Source of the DNA: an uncultured Gammaproteobacteria bacterium
GTDB lineage: Bacteria; Patescibacteriota; Patescibacteriia; UBA9570; JBBTWU01
DNA: 64,000 bases
Direction of reading: 5' to 3'
NCBI GenBank assembly: GCA_964364425.1
Contig: CAYIMB010000002.1
Location: 17,436 to 81,435 of the forward strand
Under the pieces are notes generated by a model. That model made no database searches. It worked only from the letters and a program-made list of their open reading frames with translations, and had not been told where the DNA came from. This document shows positions 236 through 62,769 of the stretch, piece by piece; the stretch's first letter is position 1, and each line of letters opens with the position of its first letter. A program made the position numbers and the translations under genes.

Positions 236-1099
236 ATGAAACTAGAACCACGACCAACACTGAGACGATCAGCTAAAGCCGCCGAGGTACTTGGAGCGCC
301 GACTGAACAACTTGATCTCTTGTTTGATGTAGAAAAAGAGGTGCCCTGTGATGAATTTGAAAAATATAAACGGTGGTTGGCTGGTAAGGAGCCAACTAGC
401 GAGCAAGAAAAGAAAAATGTGGTGGCCAGTGCTTGGTATGGTTTGTTGCATCCTGAGTACAGGGACTTGATGCGTCAGAGTCCCTGGTTAAAAGAATTTT
501 GGGTGAAGTTTTTTGCCAGTGACATGGAAAAAGCCGTTGGGGAGCGTCAAAAAGGAAATAGATATTTTCACATTAGGAATAGTTTCGAAATAGCTGCTCC
601 CTTTGGGCAAGTGTTTCCAGAAAGACGGGCAGATCTCAAGCTGACTGAACAAGCGTATGAATGGCTGCTAGAGAATTTCCCACCATCCAACGAATCCCAA
701 ATCTACAATACTGCTGTTATTTTATTGGAATTATGGCCGGAACGCCGGGAAATTATTCTGTCCACGTATTTTCCTGAAGGTGCGCCTACGGAATTAGGGA
801 AAATCACTGATAATTGGACACTAGGGACCCGCTTGTTACTTTTCCCTGAATTGAGGCCAGCAGCCAGGAGTCACCTCGCCCAAAAGCGAGAACAATATAC
901 AACTGAGATTAGTTATTGGCGGGAGCGCTTTGACAGTGGTGAGCAGGACGCAGCCGGAGCGTTCAACGACTATCTGAAGAACCTCGCTATTTTGAGTGCA
1001 GAACAAGCTTGGATTGATGAAACCGGTATGGAGCATATTGAAATGCCGAGACGGGGAATGAGGAGAGATGTACCGTTACCGGACAGACCTCACGTATAA
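236..1099 (+). CDS. Hypothetical protein, tandem paralog family (C-terminal VPLPDRPHV)
   Basis: 287-aa ORF. ATG lies inside the conserved junction TAAAAATCGATATGAAACTA. Family-typical C-terminus. Confidence 0.6.
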   Translation: MKLEPRPTLRRSAKAAEVLGAPTEQLDLLFDVEKEVPCDEFEKYKRWLAGKEPTSEQEKKNVVASAWYGLLHPEYRDLMRQSPWLKEFWVKFFASDMEKAVGERQKGNRYFHIRNSFEIAAPFGQVFPERRADLKLTEQAYEWLLENFPPSNESQIYNTAVILLELWPERREIILSTYFPEGAPTELGKITDNWTLGTRLLLFPELRPAARSHLAQKREQYTTEISYWRERFDSGEQDAAGAFNDYLKNLAILSAEQAWIDETGMEHIEMPRRGMRRDVPLPDRPHV

Positions 1100-7293: not shown

Positions 7294-8160
7294 ATGAAAT
7301 TACGTTCAGAAGCACGCCGAACGTTCCAGAAATCAGCCGATGTTTTGCTTCCTCATGAAGAGTTGCAACCGCGGATTTTTGATCCGCGTTTAGATTTACC
7401 GGCCGGAGAATATGCAAAATTTCGTGACACTGTTAAACGAGACACCTCTTTTAAGGGACCTAAGAGATTTAAAATTCCCCATGTAGCTTGGATCAGTTGG
7501 TTTGACCCGTCTTATAGAGACGACTTGCGCGGTGTTGATAAATACAAAGAACAGCAGGTATCTGAACTGTTTATAAAAGCTAATCAAGTTCATGGCTTTG
7601 ACTCACAAATGAGAGTGTTAGAATTGAACCTTCAACTTGCCAGAGTGTTGCAACAATTTCCAGAGACTAGAAAAGAATTAAAAGAACTAACAGAAGTTTC
7701 ACGCTTAGAATATGTAATGGAATGGATTCGTGATGGCGTAGATCCACAAATGATTGTGAATTGGATTCAGATTTGGCCTGAACACAGGGCAAGAATTATG
7801 CAAGCAGCCTTTCCTAAAGGGTTGGAGGGTTTCTTGAAACAAGAAGAACAGAATTTATTTGACCCACCTAGCAATCAAGTCAATTATGCAGCCGACTTAA
7901 GTTTGCTTTTTCCAGAATCAAAAGCTTTTTTATTACAGCTGATCAAAGACGCACTCCCAAGAGAGCGAGCGAGACTAAGAGAATTGTCAAAAAGTATTAG
8001 TCCGGATGATTTTAAAACCTACCACCGTTTGATTGGAGACCTTACAATACTAGGTGCTGAGCAGGCTACCATTGATCAACACGGTCTGATTCAGGTTGAG
8101 CTACAACCTCTGCACAAACTCAGTGTCGTGCCACCATTACCGGACAGATCAACGTTATAA
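7294..8160 (+). CDS. Hypothetical protein, fourth member of the paralog family (C-terminal PPLPDRSTL)
   Basis: 288 aa. N-terminus MKLRSEARR.. and C-terminal region align with the 236 and 1107 genes. Stop lies inside TTATAAATCGATTTT. Confidence 0.6.
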   Translation: MKLRSEARRTFQKSADVLLPHEELQPRIFDPRLDLPAGEYAKFRDTVKRDTSFKGPKRFKIPHVAWISWFDPSYRDDLRGVDKYKEQQVSELFIKANQVHGFDSQMRVLELNLQLARVLQQFPETRKELKELTEVSRLEYVMEWIRDGVDPQMIVNWIQIWPEHRARIMQAAFPKGLEGFLKQEEQNLFDPPSNQVNYAADLSLLFPESKAFLLQLIKDALPRERARLRELSKSISPDDFKTYHRLIGDLTILGAEQATIDQHGLIQVELQPLHKLSVVPPLPDRSTL

Positions 8161-9476: not shown

Positions 9477-10229
9477 CTACCGAACGGCCGTCCAGACCCC
9501 CATGTCGTCGCCGAAGGGCACGGCCAGGCCCACGTAGATCCGGCACGTGTCGCCGGAGCCGCTGCTGCTGGTCTTCTCGTAGAGGGTGACCGTGTGGTCG
9601 TCCGACGTGACGGTGAAGCCGCCGCAGTCGTCCGACCAGTTGGCGCCGGAAGACCACTCGGCCTGGATGTCCACCCACGAGTGGTCGCTCAGGTCCGTGG
9701 TGGACGGGCTGAACATCAGGGTGTCCGTGGACGCGGACACGCTGGCCGACGCGGAGCCGCCGGACCCGTACCAGGCCCAGATGGTGGCGGGGTAGGTGAG
9801 GCCGCCGCTTGCGTCGCGGGTGACCACAATCCTGAGGACCGTGGTAGCGCTGTCGCCCGTGTCCACGACCGCGGTGTCGGTCACGGAGGTGTCCGCGGTG
9901 TCGCCGGTGCCGTCGCAGTCGGTGTCCACGCCGTCGGTCGGATCCTCGGTCGCGCCGGGGTTCACCGTGGCGTCGCGGTCCGCGCAGTCGCCGCCGAACG
10001 GGGAGTACCCGCGGGGGCGCCGGGTGGCCCAGAGGTCGGAGCCGGGCGCGCCGTAGCCGTCGCGGTCGCCGTCCCACCAGTAGTGGGTGATGACGATCCG
10101 GCTGGTACGGGACAGCGCGGTGTTGCGGACTTCCATGGTCTCGGCGCGGTCGTTGGCGGGGGCCTTGGTCTCTACGACCGGGGCGGTGGAGCGGTCACAG
10201 GCCGCCAGAATCAGAAGCAGGGACGACAT
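9477..10229 (-). CDS. GC-rich lipoprotein with Asp-rich MopE-like putative metal-binding repeats
   Basis: Signal peptide plus lipobox LAAC. Motif DCADRD..VNPGATE..DG.DTDCDG. Foreign-looking GC-rich codon usage. Confidence 0.6.
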   Translation of the reverse strand: MSSLLLILAACDRSTAPVVETKAPANDRAETMEVRNTALSRTSRIVITHYWWDGDRDGYGAPGSDLWATRRPRGYSPFGGDCADRDATVNPGATEDPTDGVDTDCDGTGDTADTSVTDTAVVDTGDSATTVLRIVVTRDASGGLTYPATIWAWYGSGGSASASVSASTDTLMFSPSTTDLSDHSWVDIQAEWSSGANWSDDCGGFTVTSDDHTVTLYEKTSSSGSGDTCRIYVGLAVPFGDDMGVWTAVR

Positions 10230-45881: not shown

Positions 45882-47489
45882 ATGGAAACTGAATTATCTA
45901 GACCCGGTATACCTAGACACAAACCCCAAGAGTTTGAGCATGTAGTCATGGTTGTGGTTCCAGAGGGAGCCATCCAAGCAGATTTGCAACAATTGGAGAA
46001 GCGCGGGGTGAAGGTGCGTGATCAAGTAGTCACGGTTGAATATGAATACGGAGATAACGACATGGCCCTGGCTGATTATCAGTTTTCAGACGGAGCGTTT
46101 TGTTTGGTGAAAAAGTATGATAGCAATGTGCATTGGCCGGATGTTGTGGCTGAAAAGAGCAAGGCACAAGAATGGGCCGGTGATGTTCCTTTTTTGGTCA
46201 AAAAGAAACCTGAGAGCATTTCAACTATCCCGTCTGAAGGCTCACGTTCGCCTGAACCGCCACCCCCTAGTCCGCCTCCAGCGCCGCCTCCTGAAACTCC
46301 ACCGGCCTCTCCCACCCCGCCTGAGTGGCCATCTTTTGAATCCGAGAGAGAGTGGGAGTTATTGCAAAGGTATTGGAGGTTAGTGGCTCAAATTGAAGAT
46401 GCCCAACTGAAGATAGAACAGGCAAAGATTACCGAACGGAGACAGGAAATTCCTATTCAAACACGACGTTTAGAGATTGGACAAAAAAATTTACAACAAT
46501 TTCTAGTTCATCATCCGGAGTACACAAACCTTCCCAAGCCTTTGGAGGTTGCCAGTATAGATTTAGCGAGCGTAGAGGGCAGGAGGCGAGCCAAGGCGTT
46601 GTTGTTAGATAGTGATTTATCTCCAGTCGAAGCGGGCAAGCGCATCATAGCCATTGAGAAGGCGGGAGCTAAAATCGAATTACATCATCCAAAGTTGGAA
46701 CAGGGAGTTGGCACCAGTGCTGTGCGGCCTCCGCTCAAAACGGTCATGACTGACTTGAAGGAGGCACAGTACCGTGTTGGCCGTTTGAATAGTTTAGGGT
46801 TGTTGAGTCAACTCCAACATGGGGACACCCGGCATAATAATTTGCTGCGCTTAAAATCCACACGCCAGAGTTTAGAATATATTTTAAAACGATTTTCACC
46901 TCCCCCTCACGCCGACTCCTCCCTTAGCCGAGATTTTTTAGCTTTGCTGCATGGAGTGGTGGACGCCGTGAAGAAGGTTGAACAAGGGACCCAAAAAAAC
47001 TTTTTGTCTCGCTGGTGGTCACAGAATGAACTGATTCAACAACACAGAAAAATTGGTCAGGGCTTAAAAAAGTTAGAACAATTTACCCAGGAACACAGGG
47101 AGTTTGTGTACGCTTGCGCCCAGATCGAATTTCAACTAAGGTGGGCCAACACTTGGAGTTTTCATGTTCTCCGTCACCGTCCAGCAGTTCTCCGCCTGGA
47201 ACATCCTGTACCTGTTCATGATCCTGCTCGGCACCCTGATCCTGCTGTCCGCGCTGGTCATCCAAGACTGGCTCTGGATGAACAGGGAGACCGGTGTCTC
47301 GGCAGGAACGGCAGTCATGAACTTGCGCTTCTGGCAGTTAGCCTCCTGCTTGGTGGGGATCTCCTCCGCCTACGGAGCAGTCCCGCCGGTGCTGTTTGTG
47401 ACCGTCCCGACCTGGTTCCTCCTGACCCGCATGGTCGGGATGCCCCTGAGCGCGGCCATGATCGCTGCGGCGTGGTATGTGGCGTGTAG
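45882..47489 (+). CDS. Hypothetical Pro-rich protein
   Basis: ATG 45882. After ~47160 the frame runs into GC-rich DNA and translates to Arg/Pro junk until a chance stop. Confidence 0.45.
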   Translation: METELSRPGIPRHKPQEFEHVVMVVVPEGAIQADLQQLEKRGVKVRDQVVTVEYEYGDNDMALADYQFSDGAFCLVKKYDSNVHWPDVVAEKSKAQEWAGDVPFLVKKKPESISTIPSEGSRSPEPPPPSPPPAPPPETPPASPTPPEWPSFESEREWELLQRYWRLVAQIEDAQLKIEQAKITERRQEIPIQTRRLEIGQKNLQQFLVHHPEYTNLPKPLEVASIDLASVEGRRRAKALLLDSDLSPVEAGKRIIAIEKAGAKIELHHPKLEQGVGTSAVRPPLKTVMTDLKEAQYRVGRLNSLGLLSQLQHGDTRHNNLLRLKSTRQSLEYILKRFSPPPHADSSLSRDFLALLHGVVDAVKKVEQGTQKNFLSRWWSQNELIQQHRKIGQGLKKLEQFTQEHREFVYACAQIEFQLRWANTWSFHVLRHRPAVLRLEHPVPVHDPARHPDPAVRAGHPRLALDEQGDRCLGRNGSHELALLAVSLLLGGDLLRLRSSPAGAVCDRPDLVPPDPHGRDAPERGHDRCGVVCGV

Positions 47490-47541
47490 CTTCGGCTACT
47501 TCTACTGCATCTACGCCCCGCGCAAGCTGCAGACTTTCTAG
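47164..47541 (+). CDS. GC-rich small membrane protein (4 TM)
   Basis: Convincing TM ORF in a different frame inside the GC-rich segment ~47160-47600. Confidence 0.5.
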   Translation: MFSVTVQQFSAWNILYLFMILLGTLILLSALVIQDWLWMNRETGVSAGTAVMNLRFWQLASCLVGISSAYGAVPPVLFVTVPTWFLLTRMVGMPLSAAMIAAAWYVACSFGYFYCIYAPRKLQTF

Positions 47542-47671
47542 GTCCGGGGAGCAGTTCGCACGTTTGAACGCGCCGAGATAGTAGGCAGTCAGCCTCTCTC
47601 GGTGCGTTCTTCAGTTTCAAAGTTTTTATGTTCACCAATCACCAGATTGGCCAGGTCCAAAAGTTATCCAT

Positions 47672-47695
47672 AAGACCGCGAAACGGTCTTTTTAC
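47672..47695 (+). terminator. Rho-independent terminator AAGACCG-CGAAA-CGGTCTT + TTT
   Basis: Read directly. Confidence 0.6.
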
Positions 47696-47707
47696 GTTTT
47701 TACCATG

Positions 47708-47717
47708 GTGACCCCAC
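47708..47717. repeat. GTGACCCCAC, 10-bp direct repeat of the tRNA-Glu 3' end (49368-49377)
   Basis: Exact 10-mer. Brackets the lower-GC AAA-ATPase segment. Confidence 0.4.
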
Positions 47718-47810
47718 TGCATGGTTTCCAGAACTAGTTAATCAAAGAGAGTATATATGGAGTTTGATTGAAAATCTACAGTCTGCGATGGTTGGAGGTA
47801 GTCAATAGTC

Positions 47811-47934
47811 CTATACAAAAAATACACTACTTTTATGCCTAAATTAGGCATTTTTATTGTGTAAATTATCTTTTGTATACTAGACTATACAAAAGATAAC
47901 ACTATCTGTATACTCTGTAGTATAAGGATAAAAT
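47811..47934. promoter_or_regulatory. AT-rich region with nested palindromes (TTATCTTTTGTATA-CTAGAC-TATACAAAAGATAA; GCCTAAATTAGGC; TATACT..AGTATA) upstream of the AAA ATPase gene
   Basis: Inverted repeats read directly. Operator-like. Confidence 0.45.
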
Positions 47935-49371
47935 ATGAATCAAATTCTACTGCAATATGTCCAAAACCAATTAGTTCGTGCCGGGCAGCGACTTAACGCG
48001 AATACTATTGATGCTCAGGGTAAAAAGTACCCACAACGCAATATCTACATCAAAATAAAAAAACACGTTGATGATTTTATAAGCGGAAAGTCATTAACGC
48101 GCTGGATAGTTATTCCGGGCCTGAGAGGTGTAGGGAAGACTACGGCTGTGTCTCAAATTTATTTTTACCTTACCCAAGATCAAAAAGTAAAAAGTAATAA
48201 TATCCTCTACACCTCACTAGATGAAGTCACAGATTTAGGTGGAAACCTACGAGAAGTTTTGGGAACATATGAGAAGGTACTTGGAAAGAGTTACGAGCAG
48301 CAGAATGAGCTCATTTTTATTTTACTTGATGAAGTGCAAGTTGACCCTAAGTGGGCATCAATACTTAAAATTCTTCACGAGAAATCAAAAAAAGTCTTTA
48401 TTATTTGTACTGGATCCTCTGCTGTAGAATTACAATCAAACGCCGATGCAGAACGACGAGCAATTTTTGAACGGTTATTTCCCATGAGTTTTACCGAATT
48501 TCAGATGGTGCAACGCGGCATATACCCCACAAAGGGACTGAAGTATGATTTACAACAAGCTTTGTATCAAGCATCTTCTGTAGAAGTAGCCTTTCAGAAA
48601 CTACAGGCATTAAACCAAGTAATCTTATCATACTGGTCAAAGGTTGATGAATTATCAGTTTCTGAATTTCTTAAAGTGGGGACACTCCCATTTGCGTTGA
48701 GCTATTCTGATGAATATCAGGTCTACCAAGCTATCAATCGTTTACTTGAACAGGTCATTGATAAAGATATCCGAGCACTTGGCAGTTTTAGTAATGAAAC
48801 GTTAAGTAAAATTAAACAGCTACTTTTTTTACTAGCAGATAGCAACGGTTCACTCGCTTTTTCAACCATCGCTAAGACTTTGGATATGCAACGACCAACT
48901 CTGAATAGCATCTTTGATGCCCTTGAAAAAACAGAGTTACTGATAAGAGCTTTACCACAAGGAGCAAACAATAAGCGAGTTACAAAACCATCTAAGTTTT
49001 TATTTATGAGCCCTGCTCTACGGTTAGCATTATTGAGTATTTCTGGACTCAAACAGACATTCGATACTCAACAAGGAGCTTTACTAGAAGATGTAGTAGC
49101 ATTGCATTACTATCGAGAGTTTGTAACAAAGCGTAAGGCTTCACTCATGTATGATGCAACTGAGGGTGGTGCAGACTTTATTGTGAATTTTATCCAACAC
49201 CGTAGGATTGTTGTTGAGGTTGGGATGGGGAGCAAAGATTCAAAACAAGTAGTGAAAACAATGAGTAAAGTTCAGAGTGATTATGGAGTAGTAATTAGCT
49301 CTACAGAACTAGGGGTTGATGAAATAAACAGAATAGTTTTTCTACCTATTAAGTTCTTTTTATTGATGTGA
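47935..49371 (+). CDS. AAA+ ATPase, COG1373/DUF4143-like
   Basis: Walker A GLRGVGKTT and Walker B LLDEVQ. Visibly AT-richer than its neighbours. Confidence 0.6.
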   Translation: MNQILLQYVQNQLVRAGQRLNANTIDAQGKKYPQRNIYIKIKKHVDDFISGKSLTRWIVIPGLRGVGKTTAVSQIYFYLTQDQKVKSNNILYTSLDEVTDLGGNLREVLGTYEKVLGKSYEQQNELIFILLDEVQVDPKWASILKILHEKSKKVFIICTGSSAVELQSNADAERRAIFERLFPMSFTEFQMVQRGIYPTKGLKYDLQQALYQASSVEVAFQKLQALNQVILSYWSKVDELSVSEFLKVGTLPFALSYSDEYQVYQAINRLLEQVIDKDIRALGSFSNETLSKIKQLLFLLADSNGSLAFSTIAKTLDMQRPTLNSIFDALEKTELLIRALPQGANNKRVTKPSKFLFMSPALRLALLSISGLKQTFDTQQGALLEDVVALHYYREFVTKRKASLMYDATEGGADFIVNFIQHRRIVVEVGMGSKDSKQVVKTMSKVQSDYGVVISSTELGVDEINRIVFLPIKFFLLM

Positions 49372-49440
49372 CCCCACCGGGAATCGAACCCGGATTTCAG
49401 CGTTGAGAACGCCGCGTCCTAACCGTTAGACGATAGGGCC
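49369..49440 (-). tRNA. tRNA-Glu (anticodon CTC)
   Basis: Cloverleaf folded by hand on the reverse complement. Anticodon loop TTCTCAA. T-arm CCGGGTTCGATTCCCGG. Confidence 0.75.
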
Positions 49441-49510
49441 ATGCCGCGCTAGACTATCCAAAAAGCTACCAACCGTCAAACCTGAACACTTAAATTCCTT
49501 AAGGATTTAG

Positions 49511-50128: not shown

Positions 50129-50653
50129 ATGTTGGCCCTGCTCCTGTCCGCCTGTTCCAAACTAGCGCTGGAGGACTGCACTGACCGCCACCACGAGCCC
50201 CGCAACTCCGACACGCACAGCACCTCCGACGGCATCTCGACCAACTCCACTCCGGCCGAGCAGGGTGCCCCCTGCCCTCAGCGCACTGACCAGCGCACGG
50301 GCAACGGGGCCATCACCCTGACCTTGGAGCTGGACAAGCCGGAAACCTTCACCCTGCGTCCGGTCACTGGCCTCACGGTGGAGGATACCTACACCGTCCC
50401 CAACACACACGTCCTGGGCTACAACCCGGAGACCGGGGCTGAGCTGTTCGTGGGGGAGCAGGCAGTGCTCTACTACTGCGACACTGACTTCTGGTTCTAC
50501 TGGGGCGATCTGGACGTGAACCACGTCATGGACTCGCGGGGGAGCGGCCTCTACCACAGCTCACAGCGGATGTACAACGAGGACAGCACCCTGCGTGAGA
50601 CCCGTCAGGTGGACTTCCGGATCCGCGTCACGGGCCTGGTGTTTCGCCAGTAG
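50129..50653 (+). CDS. GC-rich lipoprotein (lipobox LLSAC), unknown function
   Basis: Signal peptide plus Cys. GC-rich. Confidence 0.5.
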   Translation: MLALLLSACSKLALEDCTDRHHEPRNSDTHSTSDGISTNSTPAEQGAPCPQRTDQRTGNGAITLTLELDKPETFTLRPVTGLTVEDTYTVPNTHVLGYNPETGAELFVGEQAVLYYCDTDFWFYWGDLDVNHVMDSRGSGLYHSSQRMYNEDSTLRETRQVDFRIRVTGLVFRQ

Positions 50654-50965: not shown

Positions 50966-51400
50966 ATGAGCAGCCCCTTGGCGCTCCCTGGCATGAAGCT
51001 GAAGGCCCCCAAGGGCCTGATCTACGACAAGCGGAAGGAGGGATGGGCCCTCACCAAGGAGGGCGACCAGATCGAAGGTGAGCCCGACCTGGAGTTCGTG
51101 CCCTTCCTCCAAGGCGGCGAGACCGCCATCGTGGGAACCACCATGGTGGAACGCGCCGTCGCCATGGAGGGCCTCACCAGCCAGTACCACGCTGAGAGGA
51201 TGCTCCAGCAGCAGGACCAGATCCCGCCGGAGCTGCGGCCGTTCTACCTGGTCTTCGCCGGTACGGAATGGCGGGACTCCGACGGCGACCTCTGCGTCCC
51301 GTGCCTCTTCTGGTACGGCGACGAGTGGATCCTGTACTTCGACTGGCTCGCCCGCGGGAGCTGGGGCTCCCGCGCTCGGCTGGTTCGTCTCCGCAAGTAG
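50966..51400 (+). CDS. GC-rich small protein, cassette copy B (paralog of 38647-39093)
   Basis: See copy A. SD AAGGAGGTG. Homologous 3' tail 51401-51560. Confidence 0.6.
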   Translation: MSSPLALPGMKLKAPKGLIYDKRKEGWALTKEGDQIEGEPDLEFVPFLQGGETAIVGTTMVERAVAMEGLTSQYHAERMLQQQDQIPPELRPFYLVFAGTEWRDSDGDLCVPCLFWYGDEWILYFDWLARGSWGSRARLVRLRK

Positions 51401-60252: not shown

Positions 60253-62769
60253 ATGTTGTTTAACTACATCATTTACATTGCTGCCTACGTACTCAGTTCT
60301 TTTGCTGTCGTCTGGTTGGGTGTACATATTGTCCGCAAGATGTTGCGCACGCATGCTGAGAAAAGTGAGTCATTCAAGAAAATTATTTTGATGATCACTG
60401 TTCCAAAAGGGGAGAAGGCGGATGAATCTCAAAATATAGACTCCATAGACGCTATCCGTGAAAAGATTTCAGTGGCCAACACCTTTTTCTCTACTTTGGG
60501 TGGCATGAAGGCGCAAAAAGGCTGGCGGGCCTTTTGGTTTGGCCGCAACGACGACTTTAGCTTGGAGATTGTGGCAGATAAGGACCAGTTGATTTCTTTT
60601 TACGCCGCGGTGCCAAGAGCCATGCACCGCTACTTTGAACAACAGCTGCATGCTCAGTTTAAAGATGCACAAATTCATGAGGTAGAGGATTACAATATTT
60701 TTGAACCAAACGGAGTGACCGTGGCTGCAGTCTTGAGTTTAAAGCGCAAATACCTATTTCCTATCCAGACGTATGACAAGATTGAAGGGGATCCGTTGAA
60801 TGCCATTACTAACGCTCTGTCCAAGATGGAGAAGAATGAAGGCGCGGCTATTCAGTACGTTCTGCGTTCTGCTACTCCGGAATGGCACCGCACTCCGGCC
60901 CAAGTGGCGCAAACCATGCAACAAGGGAAAAAGTTAGAGCGCGCCATGAAAGAAGTGACGGGAAATATATTTACCAAAACATTTATTTTTTTAGGACGGA
61001 TGTGGGGGAAGAAGAGGAAAGCAGGTCAAGGGATTGATGCGGTGACTGAACGTGAATATCGTTTAAGTCCCATGGAAGAAGAGGTGGTAAAGTCCTTGGA
61101 AGATAAAACCTCACATGCCGGATTTAATGTGAGTATTCGTGTGGTGGTGGATGCACCAACCAAAGAGCAGGCCATGCGCAAAGCGGATAATGTTTTACAT
61201 GCCTTCACGCAGTATGCCACCTACCAATTTGGCAACAGTTTTAGTTTTTCTAAACCCAAACAGGATGCGCATGAGATAGAAAAGTTTATTTACCGCCAAT
61301 TTGATGTGAAGCACCAGATGTTGTTGAACTCCAAGGAAATGGCTTCTTTGTGGCATCCGCCGTTGCGCATTACAGAAACACCAAACATTCGTTGGCTACT
61401 GGCTAAGAAAGCCGTCCCTCCGGCTAATATGCCTAAAGACGGAATTATTTTGGGTGAAGTGGAATACCGCGGGGTCAAACAGTTGGTGCGGATTAAAGCG
61501 GAAGACAGGTTTAGACATATGTACATTATTGGTAAGTCTGGTTCCGGTAAGTCCGTGTTGCTGACTCAGATGGCCATTCAAGATATTCAGAATGGTGAAG
61601 GGGTGGCTGTGATAGATCCGCATGGAGACCTGATTGACGACATTTTGCCCCATATTCCTAAGGAGCGGGCGGATGATGTGGTTATTTTCAACCCAGCTGA
61701 TACTGATAGGCCACTGGGACTGAACATGTTGGAATTTGAAACAGACGAGCAAAAAGATTTTGCCGCCCAGGAAATGATAGCCATTTTTTACAAGTTATTT
61801 GGACAGGAGATGATTGGTCCTATGTTTGAGCATTATATGCGTAATGCCATGTTGGCTTTGATGGATGATAAGGAGGCGGGTGCAACTATTATAGAAATTC
61901 CGCGTATGTTTACGGATGAAAAATTCCGCAAAGACAAATTGAAAAAGGTACGTAACTTGATTGTGAAAAACTTTTGGGAACAAGAGTATGAGCAAAGTCA
62001 GGCCGGACAACAGGCGGCTGATATGTTGTCTTACGTTATTTCCAAGATTGGCCGTTTCCTGACTAACGACATGATGCGCAACATCATGGGCCAACAGAAA
62101 TCCGGTTTTGATTTCAAGGATGTCATGAACAACCGCAAGATCTTGTTGTGTAATTTGTCCAAAGGTACCACAGGTGAAGTGAACTCTAGCTTGTTGGGTT
62201 TGATTATTGTGAGCAAACTCCAAATGGCCGCCATGGCTCGCGCTTCCATGCCAAAATCTGAACGGAAGAACTTCTACCTATACGCTGATGAGTTCCAAAA
62301 TTTTATTACAGACTCCATTGCTACTATTTTGTCTGAAGCCCGTAAATATCGATTTTCCATGGTGATGGCTCACCAATATGTCACTCAGTTAGTGGTCAAC
62401 AATGACACTAAGGTGCGTGACGCTGTGTTTGGTAACGTTGGTACCATGATTGCTTTCCGGATTGGTGTGGAAGATGCTGAAGTGATTGCTAAGGAGTTTG
62501 CCCCGGTGTTTGACCAAAATGATGTGGTCAACGTGGAACAATTTACTGCCAACATCAAATTGTTGATAGACAACACGGCTTGTAAAGCGTTCAACATGAA
62601 GACTATCATGCCGCCACAGGGGAATCTGAAGATGGCCTCAACCTTGAAACAGTTATCTCGTCTGAAATATGGCCGTGACCGCGCTTTAGTGGAGGCTGAA
62701 ATTAAAGAACGTGCTCGTTTGGGTGAGCTAGGTGGCGGAGGACAGACCGCGCCAGATAGCTTCTTCTAA
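60253..62769 (+). CDS. Membrane-anchored P-loop ATPase, VirB4/TraC/HerA (DUF87)-like
   Basis: N-terminal TM helix. Walker A GKSGSGKS followed by VIDPHGD. 838 aa. Confidence 0.45.
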   Translation: MLFNYIIYIAAYVLSSFAVVWLGVHIVRKMLRTHAEKSESFKKIILMITVPKGEKADESQNIDSIDAIREKISVANTFFSTLGGMKAQKGWRAFWFGRNDDFSLEIVADKDQLISFYAAVPRAMHRYFEQQLHAQFKDAQIHEVEDYNIFEPNGVTVAAVLSLKRKYLFPIQTYDKIEGDPLNAITNALSKMEKNEGAAIQYVLRSATPEWHRTPAQVAQTMQQGKKLERAMKEVTGNIFTKTFIFLGRMWGKKRKAGQGIDAVTEREYRLSPMEEEVVKSLEDKTSHAGFNVSIRVVVDAPTKEQAMRKADNVLHAFTQYATYQFGNSFSFSKPKQDAHEIEKFIYRQFDVKHQMLLNSKEMASLWHPPLRITETPNIRWLLAKKAVPPANMPKDGIILGEVEYRGVKQLVRIKAEDRFRHMYIIGKSGSGKSVLLTQMAIQDIQNGEGVAVIDPHGDLIDDILPHIPKERADDVVIFNPADTDRPLGLNMLEFETDEQKDFAAQEMIAIFYKLFGQEMIGPMFEHYMRNAMLALMDDKEAGATIIEIPRMFTDEKFRKDKLKKVRNLIVKNFWEQEYEQSQAGQQAADMLSYVISKIGRFLTNDMMRNIMGQQKSGFDFKDVMNNRKILLCNLSKGTTGEVNSSLLGLIIVSKLQMAAMARASMPKSERKNFYLYADEFQNFITDSIATILSEARKYRFSMVMAHQYVTQLVVNNDTKVRDAVFGNVGTMIAFRIGVEDAEVIAKEFAPVFDQNDVVNVEQFTANIKLLIDNTACKAFNMKTIMPPQGNLKMASTLKQLSRLKYGRDRALVEAEIKERARLGELGGGGQTAPDSFF

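What the first reader, a model, noticed from the sequence alone, without database searches (positions are those of the whole stretch)
47708..49440. AT-rich AAA-ATPase segment adjacent to tRNA-Glu, bounded by a 10-bp direct repeat of the tRNA 3' end
GTGACCCCAC occurs at 47708-47717 and again as the 3' end of tRNA-Glu (49368-49377). Between them lies a visibly AT-richer segment with a palindrome-dense operator-like region (TTATCTTTTGTATA-N6-TATACAAAAGATAA and others) and a COG1373/DUF4143-type AAA+ ATPase gene whose stop overlaps the tRNA end. This layout matches a small island integrated at a tRNA 3' end with an attL/attR remnant, although no integrase is present.
Basis: partly seen in the sequence, partly recalled or inferred. 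Interest (0 to 1): 0.5.

Follow-up and report, generated by a model that had tools for sequence, protein, structure and literature searches.

The report
Integrase-less ATPase islet at tRNA-Glu
A 1.66-kb piece of foreign DNA carrying a single candidate anti-phage ATPase-nuclease gene sits inserted at the very 3' end of a tRNA-Glu gene in a groundwater Patescibacteria (CPR) genome, and the closest relative found still has the unoccupied site; it is a clean but fairly ordinary small genomic island with no recombinase of its own.

Summary
GTGACCCCAC occurs only at 47708-47717 and 49368-49377. The second copy is the 3' end of tRNA-Glu(CUC), which lies on the minus strand. Between the copies lie an AT-rich segment, a perfect 14-nt-arm palindrome and an AAA_14+DUF4143 ATPase whose stop codon overlaps the tRNA end.

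The interpretation passes its own test. The closest relative found (L098) joins the flank left of 47708 directly to the tRNA-Glu 3' part, through one copy of the 10-mer. In another genome (L089) the ATPase 3' end runs through the same core into the island's left-end sequence. attB-, attL-, attR- and attP-like junctions are therefore all seen.

The island is 1,660 bp and non-autonomous: no integrase was found in the window. Its cargo matches PADLOC PDC-S01, an unvalidated single-gene defence candidate.

Three qualifications apply.
- The 10-mer opens a ~93-nt element (E) that travels with the cassette.
- The whole interval 47112-49367 is a variable hotspot among four relatives.
- One relative (L090) holds the ATPase at the same locus without a clean repeat, and L098 carries another repeat-bounded deletion nearby. 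L098 could therefore have lost the island secondarily.

The recombinase is unknown. Interest is moderate.

The parts
47708..47717 (.). Left copy of the 10-bp core (attL core). It is the displaced original 3' end of tRNA-Glu. Read on the minus strand with 47705-47707 it gives GTGGGGTCA-CCA-T, so it still carries the encoded CCA.
   Evidence: The same flank plus core is joined to the tRNA body in L098. CCA is encoded in the ATPase-free relatives L097 and L098.
47708..47800 (+). Element E, ~93 nt, the left-end sequence of the cassette. It begins with the 10-bp core.
   Evidence: An nhmmer profile finds it once in the window. In L089 it finds two full copies (1-90 and 2771-2864, the second directly after the ATPase stop) and one partial copy (1153-1207). 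In L090 it finds one partial copy (9833-9876). It is absent from L097, L098 and L099. It has no stable fold (z about 0) and no Rfam match. Beyond the core it is not similar to the tRNA (p>0.2).
47812..47915 (+). Conserved promoter/operator region of the ATPase gene. It holds TATACAAAA/TTTTGTATA half-sites at 47812-47824, 47866-47879 and 47886-47899, and a further TGTATAC at 47907-47913. The perfect palindrome lies at 47866-47899. A promoter-like match spans 47886-47914.
   Evidence: The region is conserved (71% mean column identity) upstream of ATPase homologues that are only 60% identical in protein and sit in unrelated contexts (L094, L095).
47835..47851 (+). Short hairpin ATGCCTAAATTAGGCAT followed by a T-run (terminator-like), upstream of the ATPase promoter.
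   Evidence: It is partly conserved in the homologous cassettes. Function is inferred only.
47935..49371 (+). Cargo gene: a 478-aa AAA_14 ATPase, winged helix and DUF4143 (PD-(D/E)xK-superfamily) protein of PADLOC PDC-S01 type.
49368..49377 (.). Right copy of the 10-bp core (attR core), part of the functional tRNA-Glu. After C74 the sequence continues ATCAA, so CCA is not encoded here.
49368..49440 (-). tRNA-Glu(CUC), the integration target.
   Evidence: ARAGORN. Rfam tRNA, 59.3 bits. 91% identical to the tRNA-Glu of L090 and L097.
47112..47707 (+). Older, separately variable segment between the conserved host gene and the island. It holds a GC-rich orphan ORF (47164-47541, GC3 0.90) and an intrinsic terminator (47672-47690). 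It is present, with deletions, in L098 and replaced by unrelated ORFs in L090 and L097.
48422..48444 (+). ATPase-internal segment complementary (20 of 23) to E positions 47759-47781.
   Evidence: inverted repeat I1; 0 of 1000 shuffles reach the score, and the pairing is also present in L089. Its significance is unexplained.

Best explanation
The segment 47718-49377 (1,660 bp, counting one repeat copy) is a minimal, non-autonomous genomic islet. It entered the chromosome by recombination within a 10-bp core, GTGACCCCAC. The core spans the last T-stem base, the acceptor 3' strand, A73 and C74, at the extreme 3' end of tRNA-Glu(CUC).

The islet carries its own copy of the core. In the joined (attP-like) form the ATPase 3' end runs through the core into the ~93-nt element E. 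Integration therefore rebuilt the tRNA up to C74 and pushed the original tRNA end, including its encoded CCA and the host terminator, 1.66 kb away to 47705-47717.

The islet encodes no recombinase, so the enzyme must act in trans, as for cis-mobilizable elements, or is no longer present. This step is inferred.

The cargo is one self-contained gene with a conserved promoter/operator. It encodes a STAND/Orc-like AAA+ ATPase fused to a winged helix and a PD-(D/E)xK-type domain (PADLOC candidate PDC-S01). It most likely acts as an NTP-dependent nucleic-acid sensor and nuclease in phage or mobile-element conflict. The winged helix plausibly represses the gene's own promoter through the TGTATAC palindromes. 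Both functions are inferred, not shown.

The interval between the conserved host gene (ending at 47111) and tRNA-Glu is a hotspot that holds different cargo in each relative.
For: Shown:
1. The exact 10-bp direct repeat is unique in the window. Chance is about 0.003 for this terminal 10-mer within 5 kb downstream.
2. L098 has the empty site with the breakpoints exactly at the repeat.
3. In L089 the ATPase is 92% identical in protein and 87% in DNA, and there is no tRNA. There the ATPase end runs through GTGATCCCAG into E.
4. The left copy keeps the encoded CCA found in the ATPase-free relatives L097 and L098. The functional tRNA in the window lacks it.
5. In L090 a different cargo abuts the tRNA at the same nucleotide, after C74.
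6. Composition is foreign: GC3 0.31 against 0.42-0.61.
7. Close copies of the ATPase (83% protein identity or more) have four different right-hand neighbours starting within 10 nt of the stop codon: the tRNA, E, a helicase and a convergent ABC ATPase.
8. No integrase was found in the window.
9. Cargo identity and conserved catalytic-type residues. PDC-S01 is described as an ATPase fused to a PD-(D/E)xK domain and as experimentally unvalidated (PMC12988326). DUF4143 is classed in the PD-(D/E)xK superfamily (PMC3424549).
10. The upstream palindrome region is conserved across 60%-identical homologues.
11. Four syntenic relatives carry four different contents between the host gene and tRNA-Glu.

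From the literature: a tDNA plus a displaced tDNA fragment is the recognised island signature (PMC4383910). The asymmetric 3' end is one of three known integration sublocations in tDNAs (bioRxiv 10.1101/2020.11.02.365908). Elements that keep attL/attR but have no integration genes are defined as CIMEs (PMC6323972).
Against: - No recombinase was identified anywhere, so site-specific catalysis is inferred.
- A 10-bp identity block is short for tDNA islands.
- L090 is about as distant as L097 (housekeeping proteins 87-92% identical to the window's). It carries the ATPase at the same locus with 84% protein identity, which fits vertical descent. The island may therefore be old and L098 a secondary loss.
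- L098 also differs by a 239-bp deletion bounded by a 13-nt direct repeat, only 125 bp from the island. Repeat-mediated deletion therefore does happen here.
- No copy of the core bounds the other cassettes of the hotspot.
- The attP-like junction in L089 lies in a linear contig, not in a demonstrated circle.
- More distant homologues show no association with tRNA genes.
- The defence function is a database candidate only.
Confidence: 0.62

Rival explanations
1. Old resident plus microhomology. The ATPase cassette has been at this locus since before the window/L090 split and is no longer mobile. The hotspot changes by homologous recombination in the conserved flanks and by slippage or microhomology deletions. 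L098 lost the cassette by a deletion between the two 10-bp repeats. The window's ATPase-tRNA abutment arose by a similar deletion between the core of a downstream E copy and the tRNA end, removing an L090-like helicase module.
For: - The ATPase is present at the same locus in L090, with divergence (84% protein, 78% DNA) in the range of host genes (63-92% protein).
- L098 has a second deletion nearby, bounded by the 13-nt repeat GGCAGTYAGCCTC, and a 21-nt deletion, so its lineage is deleting DNA here.
- There is no integrase.
- No core copies lie at the other cassette borders.
- In L090 the ATPase is followed by a possible E remnant and then the helicase.
Against: - This does not explain why the repeat is exactly the tRNA terminus, with the original CCA and trailer retained at the distal copy. 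That still requires an insertion at the core at some point.
- The sequences left of the core are unrelated in the window and in L090. This is awkward for a single ancestral insertion.
- It needs two precise losses (L098, L097) plus flank replacement, against two gains.
- L089 shows the cassette elsewhere with joined ends, and its ATPase is closer to the window's than L090's is.
Confidence: 0.25
2. A family of small recombinase-less cassettes with different cargo shares the core-plus-E left end and accumulates in arrays ending at tRNA-Glu. Cargo seen so far: the ATPase, an APH-type kinase, a TOTE primase-helicase, and others. Such a family would resemble integron cassettes or tandem CIMEs. Alternatively the ATPase-nuclease itself promotes insertion.
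For: - L089 reads core-E / APH kinase (minus strand) / partial E / ATPase / core-E / other sequence.
- L090 reads degenerate core-E / ATPase / possible E remnant / TOTE helicase + orf165 / core-tRNA. The junction with the tRNA is at the same nucleotide as in the window.
- The protein has AAA+ and PD-(D/E)xK-type domains.
Against: - Only three loci carry E.
- The E remnant after the L090 ATPase is too degenerate for nhmmer to detect.
- E has no hairpin-forming structure like attC.
- No terminal inverted repeats were seen at the island ends on reading the sequence; this was not tested with a tool.
- The two full E copies in L089 have different core variants, so they are not a fresh target duplication.
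- Homologues elsewhere show no tRNA association.
Confidence: 0.1
3. The 10-bp repeat is a coincidence and the ATPase is an ordinary AT-rich resident gene.
For: - Any 10-mer of the last 33 nt of the tRNA recurs within 5 kb in about 6% of simulations.
- AT-richness is a property of this gene family in all hosts examined (GC 0.36-0.40).
Against: - The presence/absence difference with L098 breaks exactly at the repeat.
- CCA is retained at the distal copy.
- The same core follows the ATPase stop in L089.
Confidence: 0.03

Closest known systems
tRNA-gene-integrated genomic islands (Islander-type tDNA islands; integration at the asymmetric 3'-end sublocation)
   Same: - An intact tDNA at one end and a displaced tDNA 3' fragment in direct orientation at the other.
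- Foreign base composition.
- An unoccupied site in a relative.
- An element-borne copy of the tDNA end that restores the gene.
   Different: - There is no integrase in the island or in the 64-kb window.
- The island is only 1.66 kb with one gene, whereas typical islands are multigene.
- The identity block is only 10 bp.
- Restoration stops at C74, so the encoded CCA is lost.
Cis-mobilizable elements (CIMEs) of streptococcal ICE families
   Same: Flanked by attL/attR-type repeats and carrying no integration or transfer genes. Mobility, if any, depends on a recombinase supplied in trans.
   Different: - No cognate ICE/IME or integrase using the same att site is known here.
- The host is a Patescibacteria (CPR) bacterium.
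- Derivation from a larger element by deletion has not been shown.
Integrase-free defence hotspots next to conserved genes or tRNAs; PADLOC candidate PDC-S01 (AAA_14 + DUF4143 / COG1373)
   Same: - The cargo matches PDC-S01 models and has the ATPase + PD-(D/E)xK architecture.
- In L090 it sits next to a second conflict-type gene (TOTE AEP-helicase).
- The locus content differs in every relative.
   Different: - Here one cassette has nucleotide-exact, repeat-bounded ends and a joined-ends form elsewhere, which generic hotspots lack.
- Anti-phage activity of PDC-S01 is unproven.
Integron gene cassettes
   Same: Single-gene, recombinase-less units with a shared ~90-nt end element. They possibly occur in arrays with varied cargo.
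   Different: - No IntI was found.
- E shows no attC-like hairpin (z about 0).
- The cargo has its own promoter.
- The target is a tRNA end, not attI.

Membership tests
tDNA-integrated genomic island (Islander criteria, PMC4383910) | Intact tRNA gene at one island end | tested here: met
   tRNA-Glu(CTC) at 49368-49440 on the minus strand (ARAGORN). Rfam tRNA, 59 bits.
tDNA-integrated genomic island (Islander criteria, PMC4383910) | Displaced fragment of the same tDNA, in direct orientation, at the other end | tested here: met
   10 of 10 nt at 47708-47717, plus the CCA at 47705-47707 on the minus strand. It is unique in the window. The fragment is short (10-13 nt).
tDNA-integrated genomic island (Islander criteria, PMC4383910) | Tyrosine integrase gene inside the island | tested here: not met
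   The island holds one ORF (AAA_14/DUF4143). Pfam on the unannotated ORFs and the contig annotation show no recombinase in the window. Not every window ORF was scanned.
tDNA-integrated genomic island (Islander criteria, PMC4383910) | Unoccupied attB in a related genome, with breakpoints at the repeat | tested here: met
   L098 joins the left flank, one core copy and the tRNA body.
tDNA-integrated genomic island (Islander criteria, PMC4383910) | attP / circular joined-ends form | tested here: inconclusive
   L089 has ATPase end - GTGATCCCAG - E, but inside a linear 3.1-kb contig. No circle was demonstrated.
Cis-mobilizable element (CIME; PMC6323972) | Retains attL and attR but lacks integration and transfer genes | tested here: met
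Cis-mobilizable element (CIME; PMC6323972) | A cognate ICE/IME whose integrase uses the same att site | not testable with these tools
   Only a 64-kb window and short contigs were available.
PADLOC PDC-S01 / AAA_14-DUF4143 (COG1373) | AAA_14 P-loop domain followed by DUF4143, and a match to the PDC-S01 HMMs | tested here: met
   AAA_14 7e-24 and DUF4143 2e-11. PDLC04787 2e-29 over residues 45-477.
PADLOC PDC-S01 / AAA_14-DUF4143 (COG1373) | Anti-phage activity | not testable with these tools
   The literature states that validation is pending for most such candidates (PMC12988326).
PD-(D/E)xK nuclease superfamily (C-terminal domain) | Core helix-strand-strand-strand-helix-strand fold with conserved acidic residues and a lysine | tested here: inconclusive
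Integron cassette | attC-type imperfect palindrome that folds as a single-strand hairpin, with an IntI integrase nearby | tested here: not met
   E folds no better than shuffles on either strand (z -0.5 to +1.6). No integrase was found.
Transposon / IS | Transposase gene, terminal inverted repeats and identical target-site duplications | tested here: not met
   No transposase domain. No terminal inverted repeats were seen at the island ends on reading the sequence; this was not tested with a tool. The core copies flanking the L089 unit differ from each other: ACCCCAC against ATCCCAG.

The most novel reading that the evidence does not exclude
Core-plus-E marks a previously undescribed family of tiny, recombinase-less gene cassettes in Patescibacteria. 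Cargo seen so far includes the PDC-S01 ATPase, an APH-type kinase and a TOTE primase-helicase. The cassettes would be inserted serially at the extreme 3' end of tRNA-Glu and form arrays, moved either by an unknown trans-acting recombinase or by the ATPase-nuclease itself. Part of the great abundance of PDC-S01 genes would then reflect selfish mobility rather than defence.
Probability: 0.12. Interest if true: 0.7.

Novelty: new member of a known kind. Interest (0 to 1): 0.4.

Why it matters
- It gives a nucleotide-exact occupied/empty pair, plus a joined-ends form, for a single-gene candidate defence cassette in a CPR/Patescibacteria genome.
- It shows that a PDC-S01 (AAA_14-DUF4143) gene, one of the commonest but unvalidated 'defence candidates', can travel as a discrete 1.66-kb unit with its own conserved promoter/operator.
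- It offers defined att-like sites with which a trans-acting recombinase could be sought.
- It marks the downstream side of tRNA-Glu as a variable hotspot in this lineage.

It does not change any established concept.

Tried and rejected
- **E as a structured RNA or attC-like hairpin.** Folds are no better than shuffles on either strand and there is no Rfam match. Rejected.
- **E as a decayed 3' half of tRNA-Glu.** Local alignment beyond the core is not better than shuffles (p 0.2-0.98). Rejected.
- **An integrase in the window.** Pfam on 10 unannotated ORFs found none, and the contig annotation for window 37935-59371 lists none. Only a TrwB/TraG-like ATPase appears, at 60253-62769.
- **Close relatives in GTDB species genomes, using RlmH as query.** The best hit was 49% identical, so nothing useful came of it.
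- **JGI metagenome scan with the ATPase.** Only 33-35% relatives were found.
- **Viral contigs.** They hold no ATPase relative and no E. Phage records gave no match, and plasmid records only homologues of 32% identity or less.
- **Other copies of the core bounding the other hotspot cassettes.** None was found.
- **The GC-rich 125-aa ORF next to the island.** It has no homologues, so it is an orphan ORF.
- **A second population allele at the left junction.** The Logan contig L008 runs through it without a break, so within-sample polymorphism is unproven.
- **A literature search on 'AAA_14' plus 'defense'.** It returned nothing relevant.
Full report
**1. Observation**

- GTGACCCCAC occurs at 47708-47717 and 49368-49377 and nowhere else in the 64 kb. 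Shuffles expect 0.12 occurrences.
- ARAGORN places tRNA-Glu(CTC) at 49368-49440 on the minus strand. Rfam places tRNA at 49369-49440.
- The right copy is therefore the last T-stem base, the acceptor 3' strand, A73 and C74.
- The 478-aa ORF 47935-49371 matches AAA_14 and DUF4143. Its TGA stop lies inside the 10-mer.
- The segment is AT-rich: GC 0.34-0.39 against about 0.45-0.61, and GC3 0.31 against 0.42-0.61 for host genes.
- The palindrome at 47866-47899 has perfect 14-nt arms.
- In simulations the terminal 10-mer recurs in direct orientation within 5 kb downstream in about 0.3% of cases. Any 10-mer of the last 33 nt of the tRNA recurs in about 6%. The repeat alone is suggestive, not decisive.

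**2. Source and relatives**

The window matches a Hainich groundwater metagenome contig annotated as 'Patescibacteria group bacterium'. Four syntenic relatives were recovered through exact-protein look-ups.
- L090 and L097 have housekeeping proteins 73-96% identical to the window's (most 86% or more).
- L098 is the closest. The fast-evolving gene next to the island is 83% identical in protein, against 62-64% in L090 and L097.
- L099 is more distant.

Homology between the window and L090 or L097 stops exactly at the stop codon of the conserved hypothetical gene (window 47111). It resumes exactly at the tRNA-Glu 3' end. The interval between these points differs in every genome.
- Window: a GC-rich orphan ORF, then the ATPase.
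- L098: the same orphan ORF region with deletions, and nothing else.
- L090: an unrelated 124-aa ORF, the ATPase (84% protein identity), an AEP-TOTE primase-helicase and a 165-aa ORF.
- L097: an 89-aa ORF and a Cys-rich 200-aa ORF, with no ATPase.

The interval 47112-49367 is therefore a variable hotspot on the downstream side of tRNA-Glu.

**3. The decisive comparison**

L098 reads ...CTTTACGTTTTTACCGTG|GTGACCCCAC|CGGGAATCGAACCCGGAT. The left part matches window 47678-47717 and the right part matches window 49357-49395. The relative therefore has the window's left flank fused to the tRNA body through one copy of the 10-mer, and it lacks exactly 1,660 bp. No island or E sequence is present in L097, L098 or L099.

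In L089 the ATPase is 92% identical in protein and 87% in DNA, and there is no tRNA. There the ATPase ends ...TTATTGATGTGATCCCAG and continues directly into TGCGTGGCTTTCAGAAC..., which is the sequence that follows the left 10-mer in the window. Alignment A3 shows four junction types:
- attB-like (L098);
- attL-like (window, left);
- attR-like (window, right);
- attP-like (L089).

A further detail fits an insertion at the tRNA end.
- L097 and L098 encode the tRNA's CCA (GGTCACCA).
- The window keeps that CCA and the host terminator at the distal copy (minus strand of 47705-47717).
- The functional tRNA in the window reads TCAC|ATCAA.
- In L090 a different cargo meets the tRNA at the same nucleotide, TCAC|AAATT.

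**4. What the 10-mer belongs to**

It opens a ~93-nt element, E (47708-47800). A profile search finds E only in contigs of this ATPase subgroup: once in the window, two full copies and one partial copy in L089, and one partial copy in L090.
- E does not fold better than shuffles.
- It matches no Rfam family.
- Beyond the core it does not resemble the tRNA.

In the integration model E is the P' arm of attP. Its actual role is unknown. One odd feature is that 47759-47781 is 20 of 23 complementary to 48422-48444 inside the ATPase gene. No shuffle out of 1000 reaches that score, and the pairing recurs in L089.

**5. Cargo**

- The protein matches PADLOC PDC-S01 models (2e-29).
- The literature describes PDC-S01 as a very common, experimentally unvalidated single-gene candidate: an ATPase fused to a PD-(D/E)xK-superfamily domain (PMC12988326). 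DUF4143 is listed in that superfamily (PMC3424549).
- Twenty homologues keep Walker A and B, an arginine pair, and E385/D386, D414, E428 and K434.
- The AlphaFold2 model is confident (pLDDT 89).
- The C-terminal helix-strand-strand-strand-helix-strand unit fits a nuclease core, but no structural hit confirms it.
- The 130 bp upstream hold TTTTGTATAC half-sites around and within a sigma-70-like promoter. This region is conserved (71% column identity) even before homologues only 60% identical in unrelated contexts. The gene thus travels with its own regulated promoter. Autorepression through the winged helix is my inference.

**6. Mobility mechanism**

No integrase is in the island or was found in the window. 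That fails the Islander definition of an active tDNA island (PMC4383910) and fits the definition of a cis-mobilizable element (PMC6323972). The asymmetric 3' end of tDNAs is a recognised integration sublocation (10.1101/2020.11.02.365908).

I favour insertion by recombination in the 10-bp core, catalysed in trans (confidence about 0.6). The main rival (about 0.25) is that the cassette is an old resident and that L098 lost it by deletion between the repeats.
- For the rival:
  - L090 has the ATPase at the same locus, with divergence compatible with vertical descent.
  - L098 shows another deletion nearby, bounded by a 13-nt direct repeat.
- Against the rival:
  - The sequences left of the core are unrelated in the window and in L090.
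  - It needs two precise losses.
  - L089 carries a closer copy of the ATPase in another context, with joined ends.

Either way, an insertion at the core must have happened once.

A third reading (about 0.1) treats core-plus-E as the shared end of a family of cassettes with varied cargo. It rests on L089 (core-E / APH kinase / partial E / ATPase / core-E) and on a weak E-like remnant after the L090 ATPase. The data are too thin to accept it.

**7. Verdict**

It is a new member of a known kind: a minimal, integrase-less tDNA islet carrying a candidate defence gene, inside a small variable hotspot of a CPR genome. Interest is moderate (0.4). The main value is the exact set of att-like junctions and the demonstration that a PDC-S01 gene moves as a discrete unit.

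Noticed in passing
window 47109-47111 (ORF 45882-47489): The stop codon of the conserved host gene is TAG in L090, TAA in L098 and TAC in the window. The called 535-aa protein therefore runs 126 codons into unrelated GC-rich DNA, overlapping the 125-aa ORF in another frame. This is probably an annotation artefact or a recent stop-codon loss.
   Followed up: partly
window 47164-47541, 50129-50653, 50966-51400: Three small ORFs have GC3 of about 0.9 in a genome of 48% GC. They flank the tRNA-Glu/RlmH pair. The first has no homologue in 5.8 billion proteins. The stretch between RlmH and HrcA is also variable: L097 has five other ORFs there.
   Followed up: partly
window 47333-47345 and 47584-47596, against L098 1593-1621: L098 lacks 239 bp of the window between two copies of GGCAGTYAGCCTC, and 21 bp near 47172. 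Deletions bounded by short direct repeats therefore occur right beside the island.
   Followed up: partly
window 47759-47781 and 48422-48444: Part of element E is 20 of 23 complementary to a segment inside the ATPase gene (the region encoding AVELQSNA). No shuffle out of 1000 matches it, and it is also present in L089. It could be antisense or long-range RNA pairing, or a relic of a rearrangement.
   Followed up: partly
window 47880-47894 and 49449-49463: The centre of the operator (CTAGACTATACAAAA) matches 14 of 15 nt of the sequence just upstream of tRNA-Glu (CTAGACTATCCAAAA). The latter is conserved in L090 and L097. Both may simply be extended -10 promoters of the TGnATAGT type on the minus strand.
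   Followed up: no
L003 (Logan ERR3858122), base 1 = window 49368: A 3.2-kb Logan contig identical to the window starts exactly at the first base of the right 10-mer. That is what a de Bruijn-graph branch at the tRNA end would produce. However, contig L008 from the same run crosses the left junction unbroken, so a second allele in that sample is not shown.
   Followed up: partly
L100 1239-1266 (IMGVR_UViG_3300028384_001073): A viral contig shares 28 identical bases with the operator (TTATCTTTTGTATACTAGACTATACAAA), in an intergenic region next to a strong terminator. It has no ATPase homologue. This is far more identity than the search pattern required and is unexplained.
   Followed up: partly
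L090 11477-13648: In the relative L090 the ATPase is followed by an AEP-TOTE primase-polymerase fused to an SF2 helicase (Pfam 4e-64, PADLOC PrimPol 6e-51). This is a second conflict-type gene in the same tRNA-Glu hotspot.
   Followed up: yes
L094 19-1656: A 61%-identical ATPase homologue lies 3.3 kb from a large serine recombinase (Resolvase + Recombinase + Zn_ribbon_recom). In that genome the gene may ride on a conventional integrated element.
   Followed up: no
L095 7561-9086: In a Kerfeldbacteria MAG the homologue is followed in tandem by a second AAA_14/DUF4143 gene and a DUF4325 gene.
   Followed up: no
window 60253-62769: An 838-aa protein has TrwB/TraG-type coupling-protein domains (TrwB_AAD_bind 2e-12, TraG-D_C). 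It is the only mobility-related gene noticed in the window.
   Followed up: no
window 236-1099, 1068-1976, 7294-8160: Three hypothetical proteins of about 290-300 aa have no Pfam match and end in similar motifs (PLPDRPHV, PLPERPHV, PPLPDRSTL). They look like a lineage-specific paralogous family.
   Followed up: no
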